Of a stretch of 24,000 nucleotides of DNA, positions 9,520 to 24,000 are shown piece by piece. The position numbers and the translations under genes were made by a program. Positions within the stretch are counted from its first letter, which is position 1, and every line of letters starts with the position of its first letter. Origin of the DNA: Bacillota bacterium (lineage in GTDB: Bacteria; Bacillota; GCA-003054495; Carboxydocellales; JAJZSN01); the NCBI GenBank assembly GCA_021849745.1, contig JAJZSN010000001.1, forward strand, positions 14,727 through 38,726. Direction: 5' to 3'. The notes under the pieces are model-generated. The model was not told the DNA's origin, ran no database searches, and saw nothing but the letters and a program-made list of their open reading frames with translations.

Positions 9520-9557
9520 AATCAAAATGACCTATACCTGGTTATAGCCGGTTATTG

Positions 9558-9873: not shown

Positions 9874-9874
9874 A

Positions 9875-10503: not shown

Positions 10504-10780
10504 AACAGTAATTTATATTATAGTTTTAGAGTTGACAAAATACTAGCTATGGTATTTAAAATCAACAATAATATTTAAATAATATTGTTCTTCTGTTATT
10601 ATGGCAATATAAGCAGCAATTAGAGCACAACATACGATTGGTGAACCTAATCCAATTCTGGGGATAAACCCAAAGCCTAACCTTGCTTTATATTGGGCTT
10701 ATTTTTTATTGTCTTTTTTAGCATTTTATGCTTTTTTCATAAGTTTATAAATTTTCATACTACGTCCCGGCGATAAGCGA

Positions 10781-10853: not shown

Positions 10854-11013
10854 CGGGTCGTAGGCGTAGCCGAAGCCACTTATCGGCTTGTTAACCGAAG
10901 TGTCGACCCCAATAAATGTTATGAATATTACTGGTATCTTTTTAATTAATTTGCAGGAATTTCCTCCTTTGTGACGAAATTGAAAAATACAGAGCGAGGA
11001 TGGAGGAAACTTC

Positions 11014-11265
11014 TTGACTATAAACAAAATTATTATTGTTGGAGTATATAACGATAAGTTCAATTCTCTGTTGGAATTATCATTACCAATAGCAGATATT
11101 CATGTTTATCCTGGTTTAGAAAAACATATAAAAAAGAAGCATGCAGATTACTTGCCATATGTCGAAAGAATTCCTGAAATCATTTCTAAACCAGATTACA
11201 TAGGAAAGCATCCAACGATTGAAAATAGTATTGAGTTGAATAATGCAAGGTTATGTTTGACTTAA
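11014..11265 (+). CDS. Truncated PBECR-like (phage Barnase/EndoU/ColicinE5-D/RelE-like nuclease family) N-terminal fragment
   Basis: TTG start 6 nt after GGAGGA. 'IHVYPGLEKHIKKKHADYLPYVERIPEIISKPDYIGKHPTIENSIEL' fits the H-x3-H ... PDYI pattern I associate with this phage or plasmid family. The 83-aa ORF ends abruptly, whereas family members are normally about twice as long. Confidence 0.4.
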   Translation: MTINKIIIVGVYNDKFNSLLELSLPIADIHVYPGLEKHIKKKHADYLPYVERIPEIISKPDYIGKHPTIENSIELNNARLCLT

Positions 11266-11411
11266 TTCCAATAGAAAAGTATAATTAAATTGAAGATAAC
11301 ATAGTTTAGAAAAGGATTGTTGAGGATCGGAAATGGTTCCCGACACGCTATCGAAAGATAGTTAACAGGTATGCTGGATACACCGCCCAGCCAACAATCC
11401 AACCTTATTTG

Positions 11412-11446
11412 AAAGACCTCGTTAATTACGGGGTCTTTTCTCTTTT
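11412..11446. terminator. Rho-independent terminator, probably bidirectional (+ strand transcript; also 3' of the GNAT gene)
   Basis: The stem AAAGACCTCG (11412-11421) pairs with CGGGGTCTTT (11429-11438), with one G-U pair, around the loop TTAATTA. It is followed by TTCTCTTTT on the + strand. It lies ~60 nt downstream of the GNAT stop on the - strand. Confidence 0.6.
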
Positions 11447-11499
11447 ACATTCCAGCCGGTTAGTTGGGCGAAGCGGAACCGCATATCCTCCTAATTGAA

Positions 11500-11973
11500 T
11501 TAAGTTATATGTTTTATAAACACAACCCGATCCTGATCTGGGCCATCATAATCCTTAAAAACATGTTCCCCGTTAACAATTAAATTACCTGGAACCGTGA
11601 CAAACTCCATCTTCTTATGAAAGGCAATTGATCCCTTATAAACAGGTGAGGTAACACAATGAACAGTAAGGCAATTTCTGACCTTAACCGCTTCAAAAAA
11701 CCTCTCATACATGTCCCTTCCCAAGCTTTTTCCTCTGTAATCGGGGTTCACACCGACAAAATGAATATAAGCTTCTGTAGGATAGGTCTGAGAAACAAAA
11801 CCACTTAGAAAGGCAATAATCCTTCCCTGGTCTTCATACACAAAGCTGGTTTCCTTAAAGTGCTTAAAAAACAGTCTGGGTAACATGTCCGCCATTTGGC
11901 GGCCACCCCACCAGTCGTTAAGAACACCAATAATCTTTTCATAATCGGCTTCTTCCAGATGCCGTATTACCAT
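11500..11973 (-). CDS. GNAT family N-acetyltransferase
   Basis: 157 aa. 'IAFLSGFVSQTYPTEAYIHFVGVNPDYRGKSLGRDMYERFF' is the acetyl-CoA-binding motif A region (R/Q-x-x-G-x-G/A-like RGKSLG). SD GGTGGAGG overlaps the ispG stop codon. Confidence 0.8.
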   Translation of the reverse strand: MVIRHLEEADYEKIIGVLNDWWGGRQMADMLPRLFFKHFKETSFVYEDQGRIIAFLSGFVSQTYPTEAYIHFVGVNPDYRGKSLGRDMYERFFEAVKVRNCLTVHCVTSPVYKGSIAFHKKMEFVTVPGNLIVNGEHVFKDYDGPDQDRVVFIKHIT

Positions 11974-11987
11974 AACACTACCTCCAC

Positions 11988-13052
11988 CTATACGCCACCG
12001 GCCAGCTTCTCTATCTCCTCCAGCAAGGTTTCCACCAACTGCTCCTCCGGAACCTTGCGGACGACCTCGCCTTTCTTAAACAGCAAGCCTACGCCTTTGC
12101 CGCCGGCGATGCCGATATCGGCTTCCCGGGCCTCGCCGGGGCCGTTGACCACGCAGCCCATGATGGCTACTTTGAGGGGTTTGTCCAGGTGTTGGATGCG
12201 TTGCTCCACTTCTTCGGCCACCTGGATGAGGTTGATTTGGCAGCGGCCGCAGGTGGGGCAGGAGATTAAGACGGGGCCTCGTTCTCGGAGACCCAAGGAC
12301 TTTAGAATCTCATAGCCTACCCTGATTTCATGGACGGGGTGGCCGGTGAGGGACACCCTGATGGTGTCGCCAATGCCTTGGGCAAGCAAGGCGCCGATGC
12401 CTACCGCCGATTTGATGGTGCCTGACTGGACGGTGCCGGCTTCGGTTACCCCGATATGGAGGGGATAATCTACTTTTTCTGCAAGCAAACGGTAAGCTTC
12501 CAACATCAAGGGGACATGAGAGGCCTTGAGGGATATCTTGATATCTTGGAAATTCAGTTTTTCCAGGATCTTCACATGGCCTAAAGCGCTTTCTACCATG
12601 GCCTCGGGAGTGGCATGTCCATAGCGCTCCAACAGTGTTTTTTCCAGGGAACCGGCGTTGACGCCGATTCTGATGGGGATGCCCTTATCCCTGGCGGCAT
12701 CCACCACTGCCCGTACTTTTTCCTCGGCGCCAATATTGCCGGGATTGATTCTTAAGCCGTCCACCCCATTGGCCATGGCCTCCAGGGCCAGCTTGTAATC
12801 AAAATGGATATCGGCGATTAAAGGAATGGTGATGCGGCTTTTAATCGCTTTAATGGCTGCGGCTGCTTCGGCATCCAGCACGGCTACCCGGACGATTTCA
12901 CAACCGGCGGCAGCCAGTTGGCTGATCTGTTCAACGGTAGCGGCCACATCCCTGGTATCTGTATTGGTCATGGACTGGACAGATATAGGGGCCTCTCCCC
13001 CTACTGCCACCGGGCCAACCTTAATCTGACGACTTTTTCTCCGCTGGTACAA
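11988..13052 (-). CDS. ispG: 4-hydroxy-3-methylbut-2-en-1-yl diphosphate synthase (flavodoxin/ferredoxin-dependent)
   Basis: 354 aa. '[24 protein letters not shown]' and the C-terminal cluster cysteines 'ISCPTCGRC ... [10 protein letters not shown]' are diagnostic of GcpE/IspG. TTG start 5 nt after AGGAGGA. Confidence 0.95.
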
Positions 13053-13066
13053 GATGATCCTCCTAT

Positions 13067-14179
13067 TTAAAAAATCTGGGTCCGTATATCGTTATAAGTA
13101 ATAACCACCATCAGCAGCAGCAGCAACCCGAAACCCACCAAATGGATCATGTTTTCCCTGGTGGGGTCCACCGGGCGGCCGCGGAGGACTTCCCATAAGA
13201 GGAAAAGCAGTCTGCTGCCATCCAAGGCAGGGATGGGGAAAAGATTGAACAGCCCCAGGTTGATACTCAAAACAGCGGTCATCTGGGCCAACATGAGGAT
13301 ACCGTGCTGGGCGGCCTTGCCTATCTCCATGGTAATCCTGACCGGACCACCGATTCCTTCACTGGGGGCCTTGGCGGTAATAATCTGACCCACCTGGTCA
13401 ACGATGAAACCGGTCACCTTAGCGGTGTATAACACACCGAGTACCGCTCCCCTGAAGAACCCAGGCTTGGTGGGTTCGATGCCAATGATACTCCGCTTGG
13501 TTTCAGGCTCCGTCACAGGAGTTACTTTAATATTTTTAACCTCTTCATCCCGCTTCACAGTCAAGGTTAATTCCTTTTTACCATGGGCCTCAATTAATTT
13601 AACCAATTCACCCCAACGGTCTATTTTCTCGCCATTAATGGCCACCACTAAATCACCGGGCTGTAAACCTACCTGGGCCGCCGGTTTATGGGGAAGAACA
13701 TTGCCAATCCTGGTAGTGGCTTCGGGATCACCCATGGACATGGCTACACCGGCGAAAAGCACGGCAGCCAGGACGAAATTCATCAAAGGACCGGCGAAAA
13801 TAACCGCCATTCTCTGCCACACTGTTTTCTTGTTAAAGCCCCGATCGCTGTCAAAATAGGGGTTGCTTTCAATACCTTCCTCGGCATGAACCTTGGCCCC
13901 ATCTTCCCCTAAGGCTTCAAGGGCTTCTTTTTTGGCCATTTCCTCATCCTCAACATCATCCATGCCGGCCATTTTCACAAAACCGCCTAAAGGGAACAGC
14001 CGCAGGTTATATGCGGTTTCCCCCCGTTTGATGCCAAAAACCTTAGGGCCAAAGCCCAGGCTGAATTCATAGACTTTGATATTCACCATTTTAGCCACTG
14101 CAAAATGGCCCAATTCATGGAAAAATATCAAAAGACCCAGGACGACTATAACCGAAATCGCAGTTAACACATTAATCAC
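13067..14179 (-). CDS. rseP: RIP (site-2) zinc metalloprotease RseP/RasP
   Basis: HELGH zinc motif at the N-terminus, a central PDZ-like segment ([16 protein letters not shown]), and the C-terminal [11 protein letters not shown] motif. GTG start abutting the dxr stop. Confidence 0.9.
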
Positions 14180-15355
14180 CTACCATCCTTGAAATTGGCA
14201 AAGCCTGTTGACCTCGGCCCTGGACCATTTGTCTGCTGACAGTATCTCCTCCAGGGACGGGTTATGTACAACTTGGTGGGTATTCATCACCTGTTCTACC
14301 AACCTGGTGATACCGGTAAAACTAATTGCCCCTTTAAGGAAAAGTCCTACGGCAGCCTCATTGGCGCCGTTCATCACCGCCGGCATGGTACCTCCTGTTC
14401 GGCCTGCAGCAAAGGCATAGGCCAAACAAGGAAAAGCCTCCAGGTCAGGCCGGTCAAAGGTAAGCTCCCGCCAGACGGCAAAGTCCAAAGAAGGTATGTT
14501 ATTGGGCCAGCGCTGGGGGTAGGACAGGGCATACTGGATAGGTATACGCATATCAGTAATACCCATCTGAGCGATGATGGAACCATCCCGGTATTCCACC
14601 ATGGAGTGAATGATACTTTGGGGATGAATTATCACTTCAATCTGTTCAAAGGGTATATCAAAAAGCCAGTGGGCTTCAATAACCTCTAAACCTTTATTCA
14701 TCAAAGTAGCGGAATCAATGGTAATCTTCTGCCCCATTTCCCAACGGGGATGGCGTAAGGCCATCTCCAGGGTAACCTCCTGCAGCTGGGCCCAGGATTT
14801 ACCCCGGAAAGGCCCTCCGGAAGCGGTTAGGATAAGCTTACGTACTTCTTCCCTCCGGTTTCCTTCCAAGGCCTGAAAGATAGCTGAGTGTTCACTGTCC
14901 ACCGGATAAATGCTGATCTGCTTTTTCCGGGCCAGCTGGGAAACCAGGGAACCCGCTACTACCAAAGTCTCTTTATTGGCCAGGGCAATATTTTTCCCTG
15001 CTTCAATAGCTTTAATGGTAGGAATTAGGCCTACCGCACCGCTTACAGCGGTAACTACCATCTCTATTTCCGCCATGGTGGCGATTTGCACCAAACCATC
15101 CAGACCACAATAGATTTCTGTCCGGTAACCGGGTACCTCTACCGCCAGCGCTTCCCGCAACTGAGGAAGCAAAGATTCCTCCATAACGGAGATGGCCAGG
15201 GGACGAAACCGTTTAACTTGCTGAATTAATAAATCCAGATTATTGCCGGCCGCCAACCCCACCACTTCCAATTGATGGGGAAACTGTTCAACCACTTCCA
15301 AGGTTTGACGGCCAATGGAACCGGTGCTGCCTAATATGCTTATTTTTTTCTGCAT
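14180..15355 (-). CDS. dxr: 1-deoxy-D-xylulose-5-phosphate reductoisomerase
   Basis: 391 aa. N-terminal NADPH motif ILGSTGSIGRQTL, plus 'LANKETLV', 'PVDSEHSAIFQ' and 'ITIDSATLMNKGLEVIEA'. Confidence 0.95.
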   Translation of the reverse strand: MQKKISILGSTGSIGRQTLEVVEQFPHQLEVVGLAAGNNLDLLIQQVKRFRPLAISVMEESLLPQLREALAVEVPGYRTEIYCGLDGLVQIATMAEIEMVVTAVSGAVGLIPTIKAIEAGKNIALANKETLVVAGSLVSQLARKKQISIYPVDSEHSAIFQALEGNRREEVRKLILTASGGPFRGKSWAQLQEVTLEMALRHPRWEMGQKITIDSATLMNKGLEVIEAHWLFDIPFEQIEVIIHPQSIIHSMVEYRDGSIIAQMGITDMRIPIQYALSYPQRWPNNIPSLDFAVWRELTFDRPDLEAFPCLAYAFAAGRTGGTMPAVMNGANEAAVGLFLKGAISFTGITRLVEQVMNTHQVVHNPSLEEILSADKWSRAEVNRLCQFQGW

Positions 15356-15395
15356 CGGTGAAATCTCCTATGTGGTATAAAAATATCGTATTTAA

Positions 15396-16508
15396 TTAAT
15401 ATTTTAACTTAATTACCCCTGCCTTGACAACAGCCTGGAAGGCTATAACCACAATTGGTCCCATAATCATACCAAGAACCCCTAAGGATTTGAGGCCGAT
15501 ATACATGGCCATTAAGGTAGCCAAAGGATGTAACCCTAAGGTGTCGGCCACTACCTTGCTTTCCAGAAGCTGACGAACCCCCATGATAACCAACCATAAC
15601 ACCGTTAATTTAAGGGCAAAAGCGCCCTCACCGAAAAGCACCGCCCAAATAATCCAGGGTACGAAAACGCTACTTGGACCCAAAACGGGAATTAAATCAA
15701 AAATACCGATAACCAAACCCATCACCAGAGCATATTTGGCCCCGATAAGGTATAGCCCCAAAATACTGATACCGGTGCTGATACTAATTAGAATCAACTG
15801 AGCCTTAAGGTAACCGGCGAAGGCCCGAAAGACCTGGGTGAGCACATCAAGCAACTGGTGATTATAAGGGGCAGGAACCCATCTTAACCATATTTTGACC
15901 AGCCCCGGCCGATCTTTGCTGATAAAAAAGGTAGCCAATAAACTCACTAATAATATAGTAATAAAAGTTGTTATCCCACCGGGAATCAAGGAAGCAAAAT
16001 TTATCAAACTGTTGACGGTACTACTGGCCAACTCTCCGATGGCCCGGTACAAGGTATCCAGGTTTCCCCTAATGGCTTCAGTAAGCTCTTCGGGTACGTA
16101 TCTGGCCTCCAAGTCGGTACCTTGCTGCCAGTACCTTTTACCCTGTTCCACCAATTGATTGGCTAAGACCCCTAGGTCCTGCTGATAGGCTGGAATAGCA
16201 TTGATTAAATGACTCAATTCATAGATCAACCTTACCACCAGAAAACCCAACACCGCCCCAACACCGCTGAAAACCGCCAACATAGCGGCCACCACCGATA
16301 AGGTACGACTGAAGCCAAGGCGCAGATGAAGAAACCGGATGATAGGTTCCAGGAATAAACTTAAGATAATCGCCAAAATAAAGGGTGTAAAAAAAGAAAG
16401 AACTGTTCCTATTAAGGGCAGGAAAAAGGGTAGTACATACTTAGCCAGAAAATACAAAACGGTTATTACTGCAATTCCCGTTACAACTTTCAGGTAGATT
16501 GGACGCAT
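15396..16508 (-). CDS. AI-2E family (UPF0118/PerM) integral membrane protein, YtvI-like
   Basis: Polytopic membrane protein with a central soluble insert (QQDLGVLANQLVEQGKRYWQ...) and a C-terminal 'LGLHPLATLMAMYIGLKSLGVLGMIMGP' typical of the family. The preferred start is ATG 16508 (GAGGTGA 5 nt upstream) rather than TTG 16532. Confidence 0.65.
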   Translation of the reverse strand: MRPIYLKVVTGIAVITVLYFLAKYVLPFFLPLIGTVLSFFTPFILAIILSLFLEPIIRFLHLRLGFSRTLSVVAAMLAVFSGVGAVLGFLVVRLIYELSHLINAIPAYQQDLGVLANQLVEQGKRYWQQGTDLEARYVPEELTEAIRGNLDTLYRAIGELASSTVNSLINFASLIPGGITTFITILLVSLLATFFISKDRPGLVKIWLRWVPAPYNHQLLDVLTQVFRAFAGYLKAQLILISISTGISILGLYLIGAKYALVMGLVIGIFDLIPVLGPSSVFVPWIIWAVLFGEGAFALKLTVLWLVIMGVRQLLESKVVADTLGLHPLATLMAMYIGLKSLGVLGMIMGPIVVIAFQAVVKAGVIKLKY

Positions 16509-16535
16509 CCGGGTCACCTCATTCAAAGGCAATAT

Positions 16536-17321
16536 TTATAGTATAAACACCTTAATATAGTAGTATGCCAGAGGAGCTGTTAAAAGAATACTGTCAAACC
16601 TGTCCAGAACACCACCATGACCAGGAATGATGTTCCCGGAATCCTTAACCCCGGCCTGTCTTTTAAGGGCTGATTCGGCCAGGTCTCCCAATTGACCGAA
16701 AATAGCGATACCGATTCCGAGGATTATATAGTGAACCAATTCAGCTTGGGGTGAAACCAGGTAAAATGCTACTGTACCAATGATACTGCCTAAGATGCCC
16801 CCCACCCCTCCTTCCACCGTTTTCTTAGGGCTGACAAGGGGGGCCAGTTTATGTTTACCCAGGGATCGGCCGGTAACATAAGCTAGGGTATCACTGGACC
16901 AATTGGCCACAAATACTAAAAGTAAAAAATGAAACCCCTCCTGAGGTAATTGTCGAATTAAATATAGGTGGGCCAGCATCCAACCCACATAAAATACCCC
17001 GAATAAAGTTCCGGCTGCTCCGGCCGGAGTAAATTCCGGGTATCTGACTACCATCCGTAATAAGATTAAAACAACTAATAAGGCCACTATTTGGCCCACA
17101 TCCCATTGAAAATAAAGAGCCAATAAAAGTAAAACCGAACCAAGGATACTTATCCCCTTTGAAATATGGATTTCAAGGACACGAAAAATATTGCCTAACT
17201 CCAGTTGTCCCACAATAGCTAAAACTGCCATCATAAACAAGAGTGGCCATTGACCATACCATAAAAAAGCTAATACAAGGGGAATCCCCACTATAGCACT
17301 TAAGATGCGATAACGCAGCAT
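16536..17321 (-). CDS. cdsA: Phosphatidate cytidylyltransferase
   Basis: The C-terminal signature 'SALKRQAGVKDSGNIIPGHGGVLDRFDS' is present. The protein is a multi-span membrane protein, in the conserved uppS-cdsA order. Confidence 0.9.
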   Translation of the reverse strand: MLRYRILSAIVGIPLVLAFLWYGQWPLLFMMAVLAIVGQLELGNIFRVLEIHISKGISILGSVLLLLALYFQWDVGQIVALLVVLILLRMVVRYPEFTPAGAAGTLFGVFYVGWMLAHLYLIRQLPQEGFHFLLLVFVANWSSDTLAYVTGRSLGKHKLAPLVSPKKTVEGGVGGILGSIIGTVAFYLVSPQAELVHYIILGIGIAIFGQLGDLAESALKRQAGVKDSGNIIPGHGGVLDRFDSILLTAPLAYYYIKVFIL

Positions 17322-17349
17322 TTAATCACCGTCACTAGTAAATTTTCAA

Positions 17350-18141
17350 TCATATCCCGCCAAAACGACGATTGCGCCGTTGCCAATCAATAACAGCCTT
17401 TAACAGGTGCTGTCGCCTGAAATCCGGCCACATCATGGTAGTTAACCAGAATTCGGTATATGCCAATTGCCATAACAAAAAATTGCTGACCCTTAGTTCT
17501 CCTGCCGGTCTGATTAACAGGTCGGGATCTGGGATACTTGATGTGTAAAGGTGTTCACTGATAAGGTTTTCATTGATATCATTAATCTTTATTTGGCCTT
17601 CCAATAATTTTACACTAATCGCTCTGAAGGCTTCCGTGATCTCAGTACGCCCTCCATAATTAAGGCATATGTTCAGAGTAAGTCCGTTATTGCCGGCGGT
17701 TATTCTCCGGGCCATATTTAAAGCCTCCTGGGCTTTGACAGGTAAGTCCTCAAGTCGCCCCAAGGCGTTTACAAAAACATTTTTACGATGCAGTTCATCA
17801 ATTTCCTTGTGCAAATATTCCACCAAAAGATCCATTAGAATATTGACTTCTTCCTGGGGGCGTTTCCAGTTTTCGGTGGAAAAAGCATAAACGGTAAGAT
17901 AATTCACTCCCAACCGGGAATAAGTATTAACAGCTTCCCGTAAGGATTCCACCCCGGCTCGGTGGCCGACACCCCTGGGAAGGCCCCGTTTGGTAGCCCA
18001 CCGCCCGTTACCGTCCATAATAATGGCAATATGCACAGGAATCTTATTCATGTCTACCTGTTTCATTAATTCTTGTTCCTGGAGAGTGGGTTCTTTATCG
18101 CCCGCCGCTCCTCTCAAGAACTGCACCAAATTCTTCAGCAT
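17350..18141 (-). CDS. uppS: Isoprenyl (undecaprenyl) diphosphate synthase
   Basis: 'HIAIIMDGNGRWA', 'YAFSTENWKRP' and 'LIRPAGELRVSNFLLWQLAYTEF' are cis-prenyltransferase signatures. Confidence 0.95.
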   Translation of the reverse strand: MLKNLVQFLRGAAGDKEPTLQEQELMKQVDMNKIPVHIAIIMDGNGRWATKRGLPRGVGHRAGVESLREAVNTYSRLGVNYLTVYAFSTENWKRPQEEVNILMDLLVEYLHKEIDELHRKNVFVNALGRLEDLPVKAQEALNMARRITAGNNGLTLNICLNYGGRTEITEAFRAISVKLLEGQIKINDINENLISEHLYTSSIPDPDLLIRPAGELRVSNFLLWQLAYTEFWLTTMMWPDFRRQHLLKAVIDWQRRNRRFGGI

Positions 18142-18170
18142 GGCCTCAAAGCCTCCTTGCGAAAGTTAAC

Positions 18171-18196
18171 AAACCCCCTCTGGCACGAGGGGGTTT
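18171..18196 (-). terminator. GC-rich stem-loop between the ferredoxin gene and uppS (weak terminator, attenuator or RNA stabiliser)
   Basis: AAACCCCCTC (18171-18180) pairs with GAGGGGGTTT (18187-18196) around the loop TGGCAC. On the - strand it is followed only by a short TTTGTT tract. Confidence 0.35.
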
Positions 18197-18201
18197 ATTA
18201 A

Positions 18202-18363
18202 TTACCCTTGAGAAATTGCACCTACAGGACAAGCCTCTGCACATGAACCGCAATCGCTACATGCATCGCTGATTACATAAACGTCACCCTCTTTGATAGC
18301 TTCAACAGGGCAAGCATCAAGACAAGTGCCACATGCTACACATTCTTCGCTTATTTTGTACAT
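18202..18363 (-). CDS. fdx: Clostridial-type 2x[4Fe-4S] ferredoxin (53 aa), not in the supplied ORF track
   Basis: The reverse-strand translation is MYKISEECVACGTCLDACPVEAIKEGDVYVISDACSDCGSCAEACPVGAISQG*. It has two CxxCxxCxxxCP motifs. SD AAAGGAGGTG lies 7 nt upstream of the ATG (18361-18363), and the stop TAA is at 18202-18204. Confidence 0.85.
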   Translation of the reverse strand: MYKISEECVACGTCLDACPVEAIKEGDVYVISDACSDCGSCAEACPVGAISQG

Positions 18364-18401
18364 TTAGTTACACCTCCTTTCAAAGGAAGGTTATATTGGC
18401 A

Positions 18402-18959
18402 TTAAACTTCCATAATCTCTTTTTCTTTATTCTCAGCCACATGATCAATTTCCTTGATCATTTTGTCGGTAAGCTTTTGAACCTCTTCTTGTCCGCGGCG
18501 ATTATCATCTTCTGAAATATCGCCACTTTTCTCGAAGTCTTTTAACTGATCATTGGCATCCCGGCGGATGTTACGCACTACCACTCTGGATTCTTCCGCC
18601 TTTTTCCTAACAACTTTTACTAATTCATTCCTGCGTTCCTGGGTAAGCTGCGGAATAGCAATCCTAATTACAGTACCATCACTGGAAGGGGTTAAGCCCA
18701 AATCAGACTTCATAATGGCTCTCTCCACATCGGCAATTACGCTCTTATCCCAGGGCTGTATTACCAGCAAGCGAGGTTCCGGTGCGGAAATATTGGCAAC
18801 TTGGTTTACGGGGGTTGGTACACCGTAGTATTCCACTTGAACCTTGTCCAGCAGGGCCGGGGTTGCCCGTCCTGCCCGAAGGGTACCGTACTCCTTACTT
18901 AAAGCAGCCAAGGCCTTCTGCATACGATCATCAGCTTCTTGCAGAACTTCCTTGATCAC
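18402..18959 (-). CDS. frr: Ribosome recycling factor
   Basis: 185 aa. '[20 protein letters not shown]' and '[10 protein letters not shown]' are present. The GTG start overlaps the pyrH stop by 1 nt (TAGTG). Confidence 0.95.
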
Positions 18960-19681
18960 TATTGAACACCTCCAACATATGTTCCGATTCTTTCTCCCAT
19001 AACCACTTTTTTAATATTACCTTCTTCATTTAGATTAAACACTATTAACGGGATTTTATTATCCATACATAAGGATGCAGCCGTGGAATCCATGACCTTT
19101 AACCCCTGGTTTAAAACCTGGATGTAGTTTAGTTCCGTAAACTTCTTAGCACCAGGGTTTTTTAGGGGATCCGAGTCATAAACACCGTCCACTTGCTTTG
19201 CCATCAGAATAACCTCAGCTTCAATTTCAGCAGCCCGTAAGGCAGCGGTAGTATCAGTGGAGAAATAAGGATTACCCGTTCCGGCTGCAAAAATAACTAC
19301 TCTACCTTTTTCCAGGTGTCTAATGGCCCGCCTTCTTATGTAAGGTTCAGCTACCTGCCTCATCTCGATGGCGCTTTGCACTCGGGTATCCACCCCATGC
19401 TTTTCCAAACCGTCTTGGAGGGCCAAGGAGTTCATCACTGTAGCCAACATACCCATGTAGTCGGCGGTAGCCCGGTCCATCCCCTTAGCACTTCCTGCTA
19501 CGCCGCGCCAAATATTGCCTCCGCCTACGACAATGGCTACTTCGACGCCTTTACGGACAATTTCCCTGACTTGGCTGGAGATGATATTAACTATCTCCTG
19601 ATTAATACCATAACTTAGGGAACCCGCTAAAGCTTCTCCACTTAACTTAAGAATGATTCTTTTATACTTGGGCTGATCCAT
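18959..19681 (-). CDS. pyrH: UMP kinase
   Basis: '[13 protein letters not shown]', '[10 protein letters not shown]' and '[16 protein letters not shown]' are present. The preferred start is ATG 19679-19681 (MDQPKYKR...); the 14-codon extension in the track is probably spurious. Confidence 0.9.
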
Positions 19682-19760
19682 GAAATTAGAGTAACCCCCC
19701 GTCTTCATAATTGTTCTACACATTAATAGGAAATCCTTTTGAAAATAGCGGTTTTTTTAA

Positions 19761-19790
19761 AAAAAGAGAACACCTAAGTGTTCTCTTTTT
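19761..19790 (-). terminator. Rho-independent terminator after tsf
   Basis: AAAAAGAGAACAC (19761-19773) pairs with GTGTTCTCTTTTT (19778-19790) around the loop CTAA. Both sides are A/T-flanked, so T-tracts are available on either strand. It touches the tsf stop codon. Confidence 0.75.
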
Positions 19791-20437
19791 TATTTTTTCG
19801 CTTCCGCCATAACCTCGCTGGCAAAGTCATCCTGACGCTTCTGGAGACCTTCACCCATTTCATAACGGACAAATCGCCGAATAGAAATATTCTCACCAAT
19901 TTTAGCAATTTTCTCGTTTAAATATTCTTGAATGGTTTGATCAGGGTTTTTAACATATGGCTGCTCTAATAAACAGTTTTCTTTATAGAATTTTTCAATC
20001 CGTCCCTCTACCATCTTTTCGGCGATATTGGCGGGTTTCCCTTCGTTGATGGCCTGGGCCTTGAGAATCTCTCTCTCTTTAGCAATAATTTCTTCAGACA
20101 CATCCTCGCGTTTAACGTATTCAGGACGGGCGGCAGCGATATGCATGGCTATATCTTTGGTAAAAGCCAGGAATTCTTCAGTCTTGGCCACAAAATCGGT
20201 TTCGCAGTTAACTTCCAAAAGTACGCCAACCCGCCCGGTTCCATGAATATAGGCAGTAACGATACCTTCAGCAGCAATCCGCCCTGCTTTCTTGGCAGCA
20301 GCAGCCAAACCTTTTTCCCTCAAGTATTCAACAGCTTTCTCCAAATCACCATTGGTTTCATTTAGGGCTTTCTTACAGTCCATCATCCCGGCCCCGGTTC
20401 TTTCCCGCAATTCTTTTACCATTGCAGCTGATACCAC
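19790..20437 (-). CDS. tsf: Translation elongation factor Ts
   Basis: The N-terminal '[20 protein letters not shown]' is present. It is a short (215-aa) form located directly after rpsB. Confidence 0.95.
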
Positions 20438-20486
20438 GATTCTTTCCCTCCTAAGTATATGTATTCTTATGGAATCTTAATAGTAT

Positions 20487-20526
20487 GGGGTGCCGTAAGG
20501 GTACCTGATACCCCTACGGTCACCCC
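20487..20526 (-). other. Strong imperfect stem-loop in the rpsB-tsf spacer
   Basis: GGGGTGCCGTAAGGGTA (20487-20503) pairs with TACCCCTACGGTCACCCC (20509-20526), with one bulge and one mismatch. No T-tract follows on the - strand. Confidence 0.5.
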
Positions 20527-20532
20527 AAGTAA

Positions 20533-21231
20533 TTACTCAGTCGTCTGTTGACCTTGATTGCCTTCAATCACGGCATCAGCCATTTTGTTGGTCAGCAATT
20601 TAACGGCTCTGATAGCGTCGTCATTGCCGGGAATTACATAATCAATTTCATCAGGGTCACAGTTGGTATCAACAATAGCCACCACAGGAATCCCCAAACG
20701 TCTAGCTTCAGCAACAGCAATCCGCTCTTTACGGGGATCAATGACAAAAACGGCTCCAGGAAGCTTTTTCATATCTTTAATACCGCCCAGGAATTTCTGC
20801 AGTTTCTCTTTTTCACCCAAAAGCTGTGCTACTTCCTTTTTGGGTAGAACATCCATGGTACCTTGAGCTTCCATTTTCTCCAACTCATGGAGACGGTCAA
20901 TACGTCTGCGGATGGTATTGAAGTTGGTTAACATCCCACCCAACCAACGCTGGTTTACAAAAAACTGACCACAACGGATTGCCTCTTCTTTAACGGCATC
21001 CTGGGCCTGCTTTTTGGTACCTACAAAAAGGATAGTTTGACCGGATTCAGATAAATCCCGTACAAAGTTGTACGCTTCCTCTACCTTTTTAACGGTTTTC
21101 TGTAGGTCAATAATGTAGATACCATTACGGTCGGTAAAAATGTACCGAGCCATCTTGGGATTCCATCTTCTGGTTTGGTGACCGAAGTGAACCCCTGCTT
21201 CTAACAGTTGTTTCATGGAAATGACTGCCAT
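20533..21231 (-). CDS. rpsB: 30S ribosomal protein S2
   Basis: '[22 protein letters not shown]' is present. The preferred start is ATG 21229-21231 (MAVISMKQ..., AAAGGAGG upstream) rather than the track start at 21267. Confidence 0.95.
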
Positions 21232-21345
21232 TCGAACTATACCTCCTTTAGTTTTGTGCCTCCGCACGTGTCATTTTTCGGTAAGACCTGTTGCCAGGCA
21301 CTCTCACAGAAATCCACGGCGTGTGTATTTTTCACACCAAGTGAC

Positions 21346-21374
21346 ATTATAGCATAAGAGGAAAGGATATGCAA
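21346..21374 (-). promoter_or_regulatory. SigA-type promoter of rpsB (TTGCAT-17-TGcTATAAT)
   Basis: On the - strand, TTGCAT lies at 21374-21369 and TATAAT at 21351-21346, separated by a 17-nt spacer. TGC precedes the -10 box (extended -10). It sits ~110 nt upstream of the rpsB ATG. Confidence 0.6.
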
Positions 21375-21380
21375 GGGGGA

Positions 21381-21553
21381 ATTAGCTGGTAGCTGGTAGT
21401 TCTTAGTTCGTAGTTCATAGTTCATAGTTGTTAATTTATGTCCGTCTTGAGGGTCTGTATTAGCTAAGTCATTTAGCTAAAAAGTTAGCATACCTAAAAA
21501 ACTATGAACTACGAACTATGAACTATGAACTAAAACATGAACTATGAACTATG
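21381..21553. repeat. Tandem-heptamer inverted array I: (NNTAGYT)x8, a 63-nt spacer, then (AACTAYG-type)x5+2
   Basis: Left block 21381-21436: attagct ggtagct ggtagtt cttagtt cgtagtt catagtt catagtt gttaatt. Right block 21500-21534: aactatg aactacg aactatg aactatg aactaaa. A 5-nt phase break (acatg) follows, then aactatg aactatg at 21540-21553. The two blocks are reverse complements. The spacer holds two copies of the palindrome TTAGCTAA (21460-21467 and 21473-21480). Confidence 0.9.
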
Positions 21554-22079
21554 AACCATTGCCCCTTCGGGTCAATACCCTGATCAACTCCTCTAAGGGC
21601 ATTTCTTTTTGTAATTGGTATGTTCCTATGCGGAACTTGGAGGCGGCTTTTTTCTTGTCCACAAGGGCCAAGAATTCTTCTTTGTTGGTGATAACCCCGG
21701 CTTTTAGTAAAATTTCGGCTATCTCGATGGATGCTGAGCCGGAGGGGATGGTGATGGTAACCGGTGCAGCTTGGGGTGGAGTTACAGGTTTGGTTTCTCC
21801 GGTTGCCAGTGTCTTTGGCGGTTGAGGTGATTGAAGGTTAGGTTGAGGATCTTGATTTTCTTTTTTTTCTTTGACCAGAGCTTGATAAACGGCTTTCTCA
21901 ACCTGTTGGGCAGCTTCTTCCTTGGTTATCATACCCAATTGTGCGGCTTGGGTTAGGATTTCTTGTTGGGTTAATCCGGGGCGGCCCGGAGGCCAACCGA
22001 TAATAAGCAAGCTGGCAATAATTAATCCTACGCCCAATCCCCTTAAAAAGCTAGTATTGAGAATAAATCGCCATTCCAC
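21549..22079 (-). CDS. Membrane-anchored protein with Pro-rich linker and YceG/MltG-N-terminal-like (LysM-like) domain; no catalytic domain
   Basis: N-terminal TM segment (GLGVGLIIASLLIIGW), a PQP-rich linker, and the C-terminal 'VTITIPSGSASIEIAEILLKAGVITNKEEFLALV...FRIGTYQLQKEMPLEELIRVL', which resembles the N-terminal domain of MltG/YceG. GTG start 6 nt after AGAGGTGA. The stop TAG lies inside the heptamer array. Confidence 0.6.
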   Translation of the reverse strand: MEWRFILNTSFLRGLGVGLIIASLLIIGWPPGRPGLTQQEILTQAAQLGMITKEEAAQQVEKAVYQALVKEKKENQDPQPNLQSPQPPKTLATGETKPVTPPQAAPVTITIPSGSASIEIAEILLKAGVITNKEEFLALVDKKKAASKFRIGTYQLQKEMPLEELIRVLTRRGNGS

Positions 22080-22081
22080 TT

Positions 22082-22687
22082 TTAATCACCTCTACTCCGT
22101 AAGCCCAAGATTAATTCTACCTCGCCCTGGCCCATTTGCAGGAGACGGGCAATCTCATTGACGGAACGGCCCTCTCGGGCCAAGCTGTGAATTGTTGCCT
22201 GACGCCCTGTGGACTCTTTTTCTTCAAGGCTAAACCCCTCATCCGTGGCAGTTGACTGGACTTTTCTTGGCCGGTTAATGTTCTTCGAACCGTTGGGTTT
22301 CTTGGCCCTGGAGCTTTGTTTGATAATAGAAAGTTCTTCTTTAACCTTTTCTGGTTTAATGTTGGACAGCCCTTGATAAGACTCTTGTTTAGAAACACTG
22401 CTTCCTGAACTAACATTACTTGTTAAATTGAGGGCTTGTAGTTCTTTAATCTTTGCCTCCATAGACTGAACCACCGTTTCCGATGCCCGTTCCAACTCCA
22501 CCAATAAAGAAGCTACATCTTCTCTGGCGGTTATAACAGATCGCTTCAACTCAGTGATGCGCTGTTCTTCTATGGCCCACCCCCGCTCAACCATGGGGTT
22601 GGTTACTTTTTCTTTAAACCTCGGATGTTCCATAAGAAAACCCAGGGCAACCAAAATCACCCCGGCGAAGAAGAGAAAGTACTCCAT
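22082..22687 (-). CDS. Membrane-anchored coiled-coil protein with C-terminal helix-turn-helix
   Basis: N-terminal TM segment (YFLFFAGVILVALGFLM), a helical region (ELKRSVITAREDVASLLVELERASETVVQSMEAKIKELQAL), and a C-terminal 'SLAREGRSVNEIARLLQMGQGEVELILGL' HTH-like motif. The preferred start is ATG 22685-22687 (AAGGGA 8 nt upstream); the track start is 22696. Confidence 0.55.
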   Translation of the reverse strand: MEYFLFFAGVILVALGFLMEHPRFKEKVTNPMVERGWAIEEQRITELKRSVITAREDVASLLVELERASETVVQSMEAKIKELQALNLTSNVSSGSSVSKQESYQGLSNIKPEKVKEELSIIKQSSRAKKPNGSKNINRPRKVQSTATDEGFSLEEKESTGRQATIHSLAREGRSVNEIARLLQMGQGEVELILGLRSRGD

Positions 22688-22702
22688 GCAGGTCATCCCT
22701 TT

Positions 22703-22816
22703 CGTAGCTTGTAGCTTGTAGCTAGTAGCTTATAGCTTAATAGTATTTCTATAAGGTTAATTTCTCTTAAGAATTTCTTTCAAGCTACAAGCTATCAGCT
22801 ATCAGCTACAAGCTTC
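22703..22816. repeat. Tandem-heptamer inverted array II: (NGTAGCT)x5, a 37-nt spacer, then (AAGCTAY/CAGCTAY)x5
   Basis: Left block 22703-22744: cgtagct tgtagct tgtagct agtagct tatagct taatagt. Right block 22782-22816: aagctac aagctat cagctat cagctac aagcttc. By my alignment, 28 of 35 positions are complementary between 22704-22738 and 22782-22816. The spacer contains the palindrome TCTTAAGA. Confidence 0.9.
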
Positions 22817-23138
22817 ACACCTTAATATCCAAAATCTTCCCCAGCTTGGGGTCTTTTAATTCCTTAGCCTGTTCATTTTCCTGGTCTTTGGATTGCCGTT
22901 GTTCGGGAGTTCGGTCACCTTGGTCGTTGGGTTGTTTGGATTGGTCTTTGGTAATCCGGGTACCTACAGATTTGGGACTGTTCTGAACCTGTTGCTGTAT
23001 TTGCTGGGATTCTTTTTGCAGTTGGGTGGCGAACTGTTGCTGTTGATTATGCTCTCCCTGGTTTTTGGCCTGTTGTATTTTACTGACTTCCTGAACCTTA
23101 GGCATTAAGACCTGCAAGTCTACAGGGCGAATGGTCAC
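22815..23138 (-). CDS. Hypothetical Gln/Lys/Asp-rich low-complexity protein
   Basis: 107 aa. GTG start preceded by GGTGGTGAAGGA. There is a short ordered N-terminus (MTIRPVDLQVLMPKVQEVSKIQQ) followed by Q-rich repeats. It is positionally coupled to the upstream FapA-like gene (19-nt gap). Confidence 0.5.
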   Translation of the reverse strand: MTIRPVDLQVLMPKVQEVSKIQQAKNQGEHNQQQQFATQLQKESQQIQQQVQNSPKSVGTRITKDQSKQPNDQGDRTPEQRQSKDQENEQAKELKDPKLGKILDIKV

Positions 23139-23157
23139 AATCCTTCACCACCTTTAT

Positions 23158-24000
23158 TTAGCGAAAAGACCCAACCTTAACCTCTTGGTCTTCTCTGGTT
23201 AAACAGGCATATTGAATATTATCGCGAACATGGAGAATGGAGGTGCCAATTGTTACTTTTACCCCCGGATGGATAATACCTTCCACCATAACCCGGCCTC
23301 TTTCACTTTCTTGTAATTGATTTTCTAATTCTTGAACCTTTTCGCGAAGCTCTTGGGCATTGGCCGTTAGTTGATGATAGGAGCGGGTTACCTTAACCAA
23401 CATTACCTTTTTATCCTCAGCTAAACCTTGGGCTTGCTCTAAATGCTTTAGAAGAGTCAGGGCCTTTTGAGCTTTATCCAAGCTAATTTCTGTACCCTTT
23501 AGCTGAGCCGTGGTCTCTTCATACTGTTTACGGAGTTCAGGGTTAACCCCTGCTTCCAGTTCAGTGGCGGTAGCATAATTGGACCCGATTATTTTGGCAC
23601 TGATTTCATCCCCGGCTCGAACTAGGCCTCCCACAATAAGACCTTTGCGACCCCCAACCCTGACCGAACCTTTAGCGATGATCCTACTGTGCATAATAGC
23701 TTCACCTACAGTGATGTCGCCATTGGATTCCACTTCGGCATTTTCAATGAACTTAGCAAAAATATTTCCTTGAGCGGTCACAGGGGTCTTGTCTTTGTTG
23801 CTAAAAATGCCGTCTTTGACCTTTAAATGCCCCCCTGCAATAACCGAACCTCCGCCAATACTGCCATTTACTTCCACATCCCCAGCAGCTTTGACGGAAA
23901 ATCCTTGGCGTACAGAACCCTTGATGATTACACTACCCACAAAATCTATATTCCCTGAAGTAAAATCCACGTCCCCATTGACTTCAAAAACCGGGTATAC
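23158..24000 (-). CDS. FapA/DUF342 family protein (flagellar-assembly-associated), C-terminal part; 5' end outside window
   Basis: The frame stays open to the window edge (VYPVFEVNGDVDFTSGNIDFVGSVIIKGSV...). It has a repetitive G-x-V/I beta-helix-like segment, then a coiled coil (LTANAQELREKVQELENQLQESE) and a C-terminal 'VMVEGIIHPGVKVTIG', as in DUF342 proteins. Confidence 0.7.
   Translation of the reverse strand, partial: VYPVFEVNGDVDFTSGNIDFVGSVIIKGSVRQGFSVKAAGDVEVNGSIGGGSVIAGGHLKVKDGIFSNKDKTPVTAQGNIFAKFIENAEVESNGDITVGEAIMHSRIIAKGSVRVGGRKGLIVGGLVRAGDEISAKIIGSNYATATELEAGVNPELRKQYEETTAQLKGTEISLDKAQKALTLLKHLEQAQGLAEDKKVMLVKVTRSYHQLTANAQELREKVQELENQLQESERGRVMVEGIIHPGVKVTIGTSILHVRDNIQYACLTREDQEVKVGSFR

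What the first reader, a model, noticed from the sequence alone, without database searches (positions are those of the whole stretch)
21381..21553. Tandem-heptamer inverted array I between the flagellar-tail genes and the rpsB promoter
Seen directly: 8 consecutive 7-nt units with a TAG(C/T)T core lie on one side, and 5+2 reverse-complementary units lie on the other, so a ~35-bp helix is possible. The spacer between them itself contains two TTAGCTAA palindromes.

Because 7 is not a multiple of 3, the TAG in each unit falls in all three reading frames within 21 nt, on both strands. The array is therefore a frame-independent translational stop. The stop codon of the upstream 176-aa gene is one of these TAGs.

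The left block ends 9 nt upstream of the rpsB -35 box. No U-tract follows, so this is not a canonical terminator.

Heptameric tandem repeats (STRR) are a known oddity of heterocystous cyanobacteria. I know of no described equivalent in Firmicutes.
Basis: seen in the sequence. Interest (0 to 1): 0.7.

Follow-up and report, generated by a model that had tools for sequence, protein, structure and literature searches.

The report
Heptamer-repeat hairpin between flagellar genes and rpsB
Two facing runs of a 7-base repeat form a long hairpin-capable spacer after the last flagellar-operon gene; it is real, but it belongs to a known and poorly understood class of bacterial 7-base repeats, not a new kind of element.

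Summary
Window 21383-21556 holds seven TAG(C/T)T heptamers plus one degenerate unit. They face 5+2 reverse-complementary units across a 68-nt spacer. The predicted RNA hairpin has dG -63.9 kcal/mol (z -7.9). A second array lies at 22704-22817, and two more lie just outside the window in the same genome.

Two sister lineages carry heptamer arrays in the same intergenic slots, with different unit numbers and partly different units. Thermincola potens, Carboxydocella and three other sampled relatives have none, so this is a clade-specific gain.

One third have an inverted partner, oriented TAG-first in 33 of 36 pairs. Period 7 dominates all tandem repeats around them.

Published work already describes excess heptameric repeats in bacteria, convergent inverted pairs in Xanthomonas, and hairpin-forming STRR arrays in cyanobacteria. 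Function is unknown in all of them.

My best reading is a slippage-born, dispersed heptamer family that fills stop-codon-to-RBS or promoter spacers. Once transcribed it gives a hairpin without a U-tract, acting as an RNA 3'-end or processing structure. It is tolerated rather than required. I rate it a new member of a known kind, of moderate interest.

The parts
21500..21556 (-). Array I, 5' arm in the sense of the genes: (GTTCATA)-type units, 2 + 5, split by a 5-nt irregular unit. It carries UAG every 7 nt in the mRNA.
   Evidence: TRF period 7, 8.4 copies, score 86; sequence
21549..21551 (-). TAG stop codon of the 176-aa YceG-like gene. It is the first TAG of array I. The last two codons (GGT TCA) also lie in the first repeat unit.
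   Evidence: ORF table; sequence; C-terminus three residues longer than in L002
21432..21499 (.). 68-nt spacer or loop of array I, with two self-complementary TTAGCTAA (21460-21467, 21473-21480) that pair with each other in the predicted fold.
   Evidence: unrelated to the spacers of the other arrays
21383..21431 (-). Array I, 3' arm in gene sense: on the + strand TAGCTGG x2, then TAGTTCT, TAGTTCG, TAGTTCA x2, TAGTTGT.
   Evidence: TRF; inverted repeats
21346..21374 (-). Putative rpsB promoter: TTGCAT, 17 nt, TGcTATAAT. It starts 8 nt after the array.
   Evidence: Nearly invariant in 4 related sequences and recognisable in Carboxydocella. It is below the threshold of the consensus scan. Inferred, not shown.
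21232..21339 (-). Highly conserved rpsB 5' leader of about 108 nt. It is not part of the repeat and marks where sequence conservation resumes.
   Evidence: alignment A2; similar in L124 and L128
20533..21231 (-). rpsB (ribosomal protein S2, 232 aa)
   Evidence: Pfam PF00318, 4.6e-105; TIGR01011
21549..22079 (-). 176-aa gene with a YceG/MltG-like C-terminal part; the last gene of the fla/che tail.
   Evidence: PF02618, 8.2e-09
22082..22696 (-). DUF6115 gene (called as 201 aa in public records)
   Evidence: PF19610
22781..22817 (-). Array II, 5' arm in gene sense (GTAGCTK/ATAGCTG units). It begins at the TGA stop of the 107-aa ORF.
   Evidence: TRF; sequence
22740..22780 (.). Array II spacer or loop, 41 nt
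22704..22739 (-). Array II, 3' arm in gene sense (AAGCTAC-type units). It ends 8 nt before the start codon of the DUF6115 gene; the Shine-Dalgarno-like GAAAGGGA follows it directly.
   Evidence: TRF; fold dG -52.3, z -8.2
22815..23138 (-). 107-aa ORF with no family match, conserved in position in relatives.

Best explanation
WHAT IT IS. Array I is one copy of a clade-specific, dispersed family of heptanucleotide tandem repeats. It is the same kind of thing as cyanobacterial STRR and the Xanthomonas GGGAATC arrays.

ORIGIN (inferred). The arrays grow and shrink by replication slippage in 7-nt steps. They occupy the only free DNA in these compact operons: the few bases between a stop codon and the next ribosome-binding site or promoter. 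They therefore start on, and here supply, the stop codon. Two unit families (TAGCTNN and TAGTTCN) recur at different slots and in different species, so units spread between loci or are favoured. They are not invented independently at each site. Most arrays acquire a facing copy, which gives a quasi-palindrome.

STRUCTURE (shown for the sequence). Both arms are runs of one unit, so they can zip together in several registers 7 nt apart. Gain or loss of a unit does not destroy the helix.

HOW IT WORKS (inferred, not shown). Array I is transcribed as the 3' tail of the fla/che operon and folds into a hairpin of about 35-45 bp without a U-tract. Physically, such a helix should do three things:
- block 3'-to-5' exonucleases;
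- be a substrate for RNase III;
- pause or partly stop RNA polymerase. That would define or process the transcript end just before the independent rpsB promoter.
Array II and the flhG-pilZ array would do the same between cistrons.

The element is tolerated and modulatory, not required.
For: Structure.

Family within the genome. There are four arrays in about 54 kb of this genome, all intergenic in the fla/che tail. Each begins at the upstream stop codon: flhG TAG, sigD TAG, 107-aa TGA, YceG-like TAG.

Same slots in sister lineages, with turnover:
- L002 slot II is a TAGCTNN inverted pair (z -5.1).
- L002/L126 slot I has a long ACTACGA arm and a short partner.
- L131 has GTTCATA x5.3 alone at flhG-pilZ, and 3 units starting at the sigD stop.
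- L004 has 5 slots, including a full pair at sigD-fapA and one between rpsB and tsf.

Clade-specific gain. There are no period-7 arrays in the fla/che-tail loci of Carboxydocella and Thermincola potens, where these spacers are 10-26 nt. The codY-rpsB loci L124, L125 and L129 have none either.

General kind:
- 35 of 105 arrays have an inverted partner.
- Among tandem repeats more than 500 nt from the seeds, there are 68 of period 7 and 39 of period 14, against 2 of period 6 and 15 of period 8.

Literature: heptamer excess with a slippage hypothesis, 70-75 convergent pairs, 89-93% intergenic and on average 28 nt from the upstream ORF in Xanthomonas (PMC4692102). STRR hairpins between cistrons have been proposed to stabilise transcripts or terminate them (PMC2670836).

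Hairpins recur at slot I in all three lineages. In L004 the hairpin is followed by UUUUUU.
Against: - No expression data exist, so every RNA-level consequence is inferred.
- The sense transcript is not consistently more stable than the antisense one (5 of 9 cases). Nothing therefore points to selection on the transcribed strand.
- The order of unit variants is not mirrored between arms beyond what a shared consensus gives (P 0.10-1.0). There is no compensatory-change signal.
- Carboxydocella has no structure at all between the stop codon and the rpsB -35 box, so the slot does not need one.
- Only 9 of 35 downstream sides of such pairs have a T-tract, against a 13% background.
- Plain slippage explains neither the shared unit families nor the strong orientation rule (33 TAG-first: 3; G-rich arm first 25:8).
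- Only about 54 kb of this genome could be examined.
Confidence: 0.5

Rival explanations
1. A purely neutral mutational by-product. In this reading the clade has a slippage-prone replication or repair background. Heptamer arrays and their inverted copies (made by template switching) accumulate wherever they do no harm, and they have no measurable effect on expression.
For: - Absent from the nearest outgroups with identical gene order.
- Gains, losses and unit turnover between sister lineages.
- No strand asymmetry and no mirrored covariation.
- Period 7 with arbitrary unit sequence is generic across phyla.
- A published polymerase-footprint slippage hypothesis exists (PMC4692102).
Against: - A helix of -52 to -64 kcal/mol and 35-45 bp inside an mRNA is physically unlikely to be without effect.
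- The same two unit families recur at unrelated slots.
- The orientation of inverted pairs is strongly non-random (33:3 and 25:8).
- Hairpin-capable elements recur at slot I in all three lineages.
Confidence: 0.27
2. Here the arrays are selected as frame-independent stop signals, with UAG in all three frames on both outward-facing sides. They would keep ribosomes, including frameshifted or read-through ones, out of the spacer and the hairpin.
For: - Sense-oriented TAGYT arrays lie a median 0-1 nt from the upstream ORF end, many at -3 (the stop is the first TAG). Antisense ones lie about 45 nt away.
- All four arrays in this genome begin at the stop codon.
- 33 of 36 pairs face TAG outward.
- 92 of 111 other heptamer units carry a stop triplet on at least one strand, against roughly half expected by my estimate.
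Against: - Abutment is forced by ancestral spacers of 10-26 nt.
- Outgroups manage with single stops.
- In non-TAGYT pairs, stop-first is only 18:10 while G-rich-first is 25:8.
- Per PMC4692102, the Xanthomonas convergent pairs are built from GGGAATC; by my own reading that unit carries no stop triplet on either strand.
- Gene calls are naive long ORFs.
Confidence: 0.08
3. A protein-read heptamer code. In this reading UAG every 7 nt on the first-transcribed arm is bound by a ring-shaped or multimeric RNA-binding protein of the HutP, TRAP or cold-shock-protein type. Binding would prevent the hairpin from closing, giving regulated read-through of the fla/che operon.
For: - HutP binds three 7-mer repeats, (UUUAGUU)3, with UAG 7 nt apart and spacer bases unread. 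By binding the 5' side first it opens a terminator hairpin (PMC2425495).
- Array I offers 8 UAGs, 5 of them in strict 7-nt register, on the 5' arm.
- The TAG-first rule is what such a mechanism predicts.
- Lineage-wide preferred units suggest a reader.
Against: - No HutP (PF09021) or comparable protein appears among the genes of the window or of L001, L004, L127 and L131.
- Arrays with the same architecture occur in several other phyla, where, from my own knowledge and untested here, HutP is not expected. The same genomes also carry many units without UAG.
- Array lengths are far beyond one binding site.
- There are no binding data.
Confidence: 0.06
4. A small non-autonomous mobile element (MITE- or REPIN-like) whose terminal inverted repeats are built of heptamers, inserted after stop codons by a transposase encoded elsewhere.
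For: - Inverted doublets sit in intergenic DNA and share arm families at several loci.
- The GTAG at the start of many units resembles the conserved 5' GTAG of REP sequences (my own recollection, not tested).
- The gain is clade-specific.
Against: - The spacers of the three pairs are no more alike than shuffles, and there are no target-site duplications.
- Arm lengths and units differ at every locus.
- Single direct arrays and 3-unit arrays exist.
- Arrays start at exactly the native stop position.
- No transposase is associated in the DNA seen. The IS-like ORFs at 9558-10476 are 11 kb away and unrelated.
Confidence: 0.05
5. A canonical intrinsic (Rho-independent) terminator of the fla/che operon.
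For: It lies at the end of the operon. L004 has a hairpin plus UUUUUU at the same slot.
Against: - No U-tract follows array I; the sequence after it is AAUUCCCCCUUGCAU.
- The consensus scan finds nothing there.
- The stem is AU-rich and the loop is 68 nt.
- Sister arrays sit between cistrons directly upstream of ribosome-binding sites.
- Carboxydocella has no terminator at this slot.
Confidence: 0.04

Closest known systems
STRR (short tandemly repeated repetitive) heptanucleotide arrays of heterocystous cyanobacteria
   Same: Tandem 7-nt units in intergenic DNA, present as lineage-wide unit families. They are often able to form hairpins between cistrons (for example hupS-hupL), are transcribed, and have no known function. 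Transcript stabilisation, translational coupling and termination have all been proposed (PMC2670836).
   Different: Different phylum and different units: TAGCTNN/TAGTTCN here, against CCCCAGT, TTGGTCA and CAACAGT (units recalled from my own knowledge of Mazel et al. 1990). Here nearly every array starts on a stop codon, and most are facing pairs.
GGGAATC heptameric repeats of Xanthomonas (Rehm et al. 2015, PMC4692102)
   Same: - Heptamer arrays of 2-26 units.
- 89-93% intergenic, on average 28 nt from the upstream ORF.
- 70-75 of about 185 occur as convergent inverted pairs.
[quoted passage not shown]
- Function unresolved.
   Different: Those units are G-rich, can form quadruplexes, and carry no stop triplet. 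These units are AT-rich, carry TAG, and have no G-runs.
TAACTGA direct repeats of Beggiatoaceae, cyanobacteria and Bacteroidetes (MacGregor 2015, PMC4679880)
   Same: Intergenic heptamer arrays whose unit carries stop triplets, scattered across phyla. Some lie in ribosomal-protein operons. An RNA-binding reader (S1, Csp or CsrA) has been proposed.
   Different: Those are almost all direct repeats placed just upstream of start codons (1 inverted case in 170). These are mostly inverted pairs anchored on the upstream stop codon.
REP/BIME/REPIN intergenic palindromes of proteobacteria
   Same: This is what it most likely works like: transcribed intergenic hairpins after stop codons, often as inverted doublets. 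They shape mRNA 3' ends and differential stability within operons (established knowledge; not tested here).
   Different: REP units are 20-40-nt imperfect palindromes mobilised by RAYT transposases. Here the building block is a non-palindromic 7-mer in tandem, the cores are not conserved, and no transposase was seen.
HutP binding site on the Bacillus subtilis hut terminator (PMC2425495)
   Same: UAG triplets exactly 7 nt apart on the 5' side of a hairpin.
   Different: HutP uses 3+3 triplets flanking a GC-rich stem and is encoded just upstream. Here there are 8 UAGs on one arm only, a complementary CUA arm, and no hutP nearby.

Membership tests
Heptanucleotide SSR / STRR-type arrays | Head-to-tail repeats of a 7-nt unit, three or more copies | tested here: met
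   TRF period 7, 2.4-8.4 copies per block; 9 pattern matches against 0 expected
Heptanucleotide SSR / STRR-type arrays | Intergenic, close to the 3' end of the upstream ORF | tested here: met
   All four arrays of this genome begin at the upstream stop codon. In the cross-phylum sample the median distance is 0-1 nt for sense arrays.
Heptanucleotide SSR / STRR-type arrays | Many loci per genome sharing unit families | tested here: inconclusive
   4 loci with 2 unit families in about 54 kb. The rest of the genome could not be read. 54 of 119 cross-phylum loci have another heptamer array within 8 kb.
Heptanucleotide SSR / STRR-type arrays | Same intergenic slots in relatives, but with length and sequence turnover | tested here: met
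   Window against L002/L126/L131 and L004; absent in outgroups
Heptanucleotide SSR / STRR-type arrays | Frequent convergent inverted pairs (Xanthomonas type) | tested here: met
STRR in the strict original sense | Heterocystous cyanobacteria; units CCCCAGT, TTGGTCA, CAACAGT | tested here: not met
   The source is a Clostridia/Thermincolia-type MAG. The units here are TAGCTNN/TAGTTCN.
Intrinsic terminator | Run of U directly after the 3' arm | tested here: not met
   AAUUCCCCCUUGCAU follows; no terminator-like site in the scan
Intrinsic terminator | Short GC-rich stem with a small loop | tested here: not met
   AU-rich stem of 35-45 bp and a 68-nt loop
MITE / REPIN-type mobile element | Copies share a conserved core and are flanked by target-site duplications | tested here: not met
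   Spacers are no more similar than shuffles, and no duplicated flanks were found
MITE / REPIN-type mobile element | Cognate transposase (for example RAYT) in the genome | not testable with these tools
   Only about 54 kb of the genome was available, and none was seen there
HutP-type antiterminator site | Three or more UAG separated by 4-nt spacers | tested here: met
   Sequence of the 5' arm, compared with (UUUAGUU)3 in PMC2425495
HutP-type antiterminator site | Second UAG cluster 12-17 nt downstream across a GC-rich stem, and a hutP gene adjacent | tested here: not met
   The 3' arm is CUA-type, and no PF09021 appears among neighbouring genes
Any Rfam family | Score at or above the family's gathering threshold | tested here: not met
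   Only weak hits to long-hairpin models (MIR2606 at 32 bits against 140; SSRC30 at 31 against 100)

The most novel reading that the evidence does not exclude
The heptamer arrays are a code that a protein reads. UAG (more generally a G-rich motif) every 7 nt on the first-transcribed arm would be bound by a multimeric RNA-binding protein with HutP/TRAP-like geometry. The protein would decide whether the hairpin closes. Read-through along the long fla/che operon, and into the rpsB promoter region, would then be regulated, and unit number would tune it. The cross-phylum 'TAG/G-rich arm first' rule would be the signature of this mechanism.
Probability: 0.06. Interest if true: 0.85.

Novelty: new member of a known kind. 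Interest (0 to 1): 0.4.

Why it matters
Heptanucleotide arrays have been known since about 1990, from my own recollection of the STRR literature. In the papers I could read they are reported in excess in many bacteria, yet nobody knows why the period is 7, why each lineage has favoured units, or what the arrays do.

This locus adds a clean comparative case. A small clade has filled three to five stop-to-RBS spacers of a conserved operon with such arrays, while Thermincola potens and Carboxydocella keep the same gene order with 10-26-nt spacers.

The survey done here also gives two regularities that I did not find stated in the papers I could read:
- Facing arrays are oriented TAG-first or G-rich-first on both strands (33:3 and 25:8).
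- Sense arrays sit on the upstream stop codon.

If these hold genome-wide, they constrain any model, because slippage alone does not predict them. They also make the question testable by phylogenetic profiling and transcript-end mapping.

For annotation the practical points are three. Such arrays break short-read assemblies (contigs L126, L002 and L131 end at or near them). They create spurious ORFs. They can also supply a gene's true stop codon.

Tried and rejected
- Rfam, at gathering and permissive thresholds: only chance hits to long-hairpin microRNA and sRNA models.
- Exact look-up of the 204-aa ORF failed because the public gene call starts 3 codons later. This was solved through the homologue search.
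- Both metagenome scans found nothing. One was protein-anchored. The other used the conserved rpsB-leader pattern, even though L004 comes from a JGI metagenome. No large comparative series could therefore be built.
- Sense against antisense RNA stability, as a test for selection on the transcript: no asymmetry.
- Shuffling unit order, as a test for mirrored arms or compensatory change: not significant.
- Test for a conserved MITE core and target-site duplications: negative.
- U-tract enrichment after cross-phylum pairs: weak, 9 of 35 against 13%.
- Search for HutP or another RNA-binding candidate among neighbouring genes: none (and the gene tables).
- The Mrazek 2007 PNAS paper could not be read, so its content is cited only through PMC4692102.
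- Assembly artefact was rejected. Three independent assemblies (ENA, NCBI, JGI) show arrays in the same slots with conserved flanks, and the repeats are shorter than a read.
- The 62-aa ORF at 21237-21425 and the 93-aa ORF at 21544-21825 were rejected as by-products of ATG and TAG in the units.
Full report
**1. What is there.** All genes in this part of the window are on the minus strand. In gene order they are:
- FapA;
- a 107-aa ORF (23138-22815);
- array II;
- a DUF6115 gene (22696-22082);
- a YceG-like gene of 176 aa (22079-21549);
- array I;
- a promoter-like site;
- rpsB (21231-20533), then tsf, pyrH and frr.

Tandem Repeats Finder gives period-7 arrays at 21383-21429 and 21500-21556, and again at 22704-22738 and 22781-22814. 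The two blocks of each locus are reverse complements of each other: 44 nt at 84% for array I and 45 nt at 80% for array II. Many alternative pairings are offset by multiples of 7.

As RNA in the sense of the genes, array I folds to -63.9 kcal/mol (z -7.9) and array II to -52.3 kcal/mol (z -8.2). As DNA, array I gives -31.5 kcal/mol (z -6.6). The pattern TAGYTNN x4 occurs 9 times in the window against none in shuffles.

- There are seven exact-core units plus one degenerate unit, not eight.
- The gap to the -35 hexamer is 8 nt, not 9.
- The stop codon of the 176-aa gene is the first TAG of the array. The two codons before it also lie in the first unit, which makes the protein three residues longer than its L002 orthologue.

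**2. Source and relatives.** The DUF6115 protein is 100% identical to a protein of a 'Clostridia bacterium' MAG. Its nearest relatives are a 'Thermincolia bacterium' MAG and two metagenome contigs.

I fetched the orthologous regions. The same genome has two further arrays just beyond the window end:
- a TAGCTTG-type pair between the flhG-like and PilZ genes (dG -58.9 kcal/mol, z -8.6);
- three direct units, TAGCTGG TAGCTCG TAGCTTA, that begin with the stop codon of the sigD-like gene.

Another 9.6 kb of the genome beyond the window start, plus the 21 kb downstream of rpsB, have none.

The sister species (L002, L126, L131) carries:
- a TAGCTNN pair at slot II;
- a five-unit ACTACGA arm with a two-unit partner at slot I;
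- a lone GTTCATA x5.3 array at flhG-pilZ;
- three units starting at the sigD stop.

L004 has arrays in five slots. They include a full pair at sigD-fapA that starts at the same stop codon, and a TAGTTCA/TAGTTCG pair between rpsB and tsf, where the window has none.

In the alignment of slot I, the promoter and the 5' leader of about 108 nt are almost invariant. Everything upstream differs in unit number and type.

**3. Outgroups.** Carboxydocella keeps the whole gene order, from cheA through sigD, fapA, a small ORF, DUF6115 and YceG to rpsB. It has no period-7 array. Its spacers are 10-17 nt, and only 4 nt separate the YceG stop from the conserved rpsB -35 box. Thermincola potens has the same fla/che tail with spacers of 19-26 nt and no array in 20.8 kb. 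Three other relatives, with codY upstream of rpsB, have none either.

The arrays are therefore a gain of one small clade. The hairpin before the rpsB promoter is not an ancestral requirement.

The sigD protein ends at the same position in T. potens (KKIL*) as in the array-bearing genomes (KKLF*). The array thus starts exactly at the native stop position. With ancestral spacers this short, anything inserted must touch the stop codon.

**4. How general it is.** I spent the single scan of one genome per species on TAGYTNN x4. The loci come from Bacteroidota, Cyanobacteria, Acidobacteriota, Planctomycetota, Patescibacteria, Proteobacteria, Nitrospirota, Actinomycetota, Spirochaetota and Firmicutes. 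The Firmicutes examples are Desulfosporosinus, Selenomonadaceae, Clostridiales and Clostridium disporicum.

Findings from these loci:
- Of 105 arrays away from contig ends, 35 have a reverse-complementary partner (at least 17 of 21) within 300 nt.
- In the 840 kb around them, and more than 500 nt from the seed, TRF finds 68 arrays of period 7 and 39 of period 14, against 2 of period 6 and 15 of period 8. Their units are very diverse. The invariant is the period, not the sequence.
- Of 36 TAGYT pairs, 33 are arranged 5'-(TAGYTNN)n...(NNARCTA)n-3', which reads the same on both strands. Every pair in the window's clade is also like this.
- In 36 further pairs built from other heptamers, the 5' arm is G-richer than C in 25 cases against 8. 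It is richer in stop triplets in only 18 against 10.
- With naive ORF calls, sense-oriented arrays lie a median 0-1 nt from the upstream ORF end, often supplying the stop. Antisense ones lie about 45 nt away.
- A T-tract follows only 9 of 35 downstream sides, against a 13% background.

**5. What is already known.**
- Rehm et al. [quoted passage not shown] They attribute this to a proposed link with the polymerase footprint and slippage.
- For Xanthomonas they describe about 185 GGGAATC arrays per genome. These are 89-93% intergenic and on average 28 nt from the upstream ORF. 70-75 of them form convergent inverted pairs. They are conserved in position but not in length or sequence between species, and have no identified function.
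- Devine et al. (PMC2670836) note that hairpin-forming 7-bp STRR between cistrons are common in filamentous cyanobacteria. They suggest that these may stabilise transcripts, couple translation or terminate.
- MacGregor (PMC4679880) describes TAACTGA direct repeats in three phyla.

I found no paper describing such arrays in Thermincolia, Peptococcaceae or other Firmicutes. The kind is known; this lineage and these units are new.

**6. Mechanism.** Shown:
- the anatomy;
- the clade-specific gain;
- anchoring on stop codons;
- two unit families (TAGCTNN, TAGTTCN) shared across slots and species, while each slot turns over;
- register-tolerant pairing.

Inferred: growth by 7-nt slippage, spread or favouring of particular units, and formation of the facing copy.

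Also inferred are the consequences once transcribed. The helix is 35-45 bp without a U-tract. It lies at the end of the fla/che transcript (array I), or between cistrons directly upstream of ribosome-binding sites (array II and flhG-pilZ). It should block 3' exonucleases, attract RNase III, and pause or partly stop RNA polymerase. This is much what REP-type palindromes do in proteobacteria.

L004 carries a hairpin followed by UUUUUU at slot I, which fits an end-of-operon role. Carboxydocella, with nothing there, shows the role is dispensable.

Tests for selection on the RNA were negative: there was no sense/antisense asymmetry and no mirrored unit order.

**7. Rivals.**
- Pure neutrality is the main rival. 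It fits the turnover and the outgroups. It does not fit the shared unit families or the orientation rule.
But abutment is forced by the short spacers, and the G-rich-first rule also holds for units without stops.
- A HutP-like reader is attractive because HutP binds UAG exactly 7 nt apart on the 5' side of a hairpin (PMC2425495). However, no such gene is nearby, and from my own knowledge HutP is not expected in most of the other phyla that carry such arrays.
- A MITE/REPIN origin fails the core and duplication tests.
- A canonical terminator fails on the U-tract.

**8. Verdict.** This is a real, statistically solid element, correctly spotted. It is a new member, in a Thermincolia-type Firmicutes clade, of the known and still unexplained class of bacterial heptanucleotide arrays with convergent inverted pairs.

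Interest is moderate. The locus itself is not a new mechanism. But the clade-specific gain against clean outgroups, and the orientation rule seen across phyla, are useful handles on an old question.

Noticed in passing
window 11315-11399 (+): A full-length match to the skipping-rope RNA (RF02924; 60.9 bits against a gathering score of 36.7; E 1.5e-12). Directly upstream lies an 83-aa ORF (11014-11265, +) with a PBECR3 phage-Barnase/EndoU/colicin-like nuclease domain.
   Followed up: partly
window 9558-10476 (-): Two short ORFs with transposase-type helix-turn-helix domains (HTH_21; HTH_32/HTH_29/HTH_23), probably remnants of an insertion sequence. They sit where the two ENA contigs that cover the window stop.
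   Followed up: partly
window 1-10550 against 12082-24000: The window is covered by two different ENA contigs. L127 matches 1-10550 at 99.75% identity and L001 matches 12082-24000 at 100%. Neither covers 10551-12081. The longer NCBI contig may join two strain variants or bridge a repeat.
   Followed up: partly
window 21232-21339 (-); L002 2290-2416; L004 11180-11290; L124 9880-9990; L128 5895-6000: The rpsB 5' leader (about 108 nt, starting near TTGGTGT..AATACACACGC.GTGGATTT) is almost invariant in the clade and recognisable in more distant Firmicutes. No Rfam family matched it. It is a candidate S2 autoregulatory leader.
   Followed up: partly
L005-L123 (cross-phylum sample): Inverted heptamer pairs have a strongly preferred orientation that reads the same on both strands. 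The TAG or G-rich arm is 5' and the C-rich arm is 3' (33:3 for TAGYT pairs; 25:8 by G>C for other units). This agrees with the 'convergent' G-rich pairs reported in Xanthomonas. I have no tested explanation.
   Followed up: partly
L004 1047-1120: Two adjacent heptamer arrays in the flhG-PilZ spacer keep the convergent TAG orientation: TAGGTAC/TAGGTTT, then ACTACTT. They are not complementary and do not fold (z +1.7). This may be a decayed pair, or a sign that orientation does not depend on pairing.
   Followed up: no
L126 1-80; L002 start; L131 end: Contigs of the sister species end at or close to heptamer arrays or the genes next to them. L126 starts 48 nt before the slot I array. L002 and L131 are two contigs of one genome that both end within the FapA gene. 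The repeats may interfere with short-read assembly in this region.
   Followed up: no
window 18202-18363 (-): A conserved 53-aa ferredoxin (2x4Fe-4S) gene lies between frr and uppS. It is present in all relatives examined and is too short for the 60-aa ORF list.
   Followed up: no
NCBI taxonomy copy: The class Thermincolia (orders Thermincolales and Carboxydocellales) is filed under the phylum Actinomycetota in the local taxonomy dump. The genus Carboxydocella itself is filed under Bacillota/Clostridia, so the source is inconsistent.
   Followed up: no
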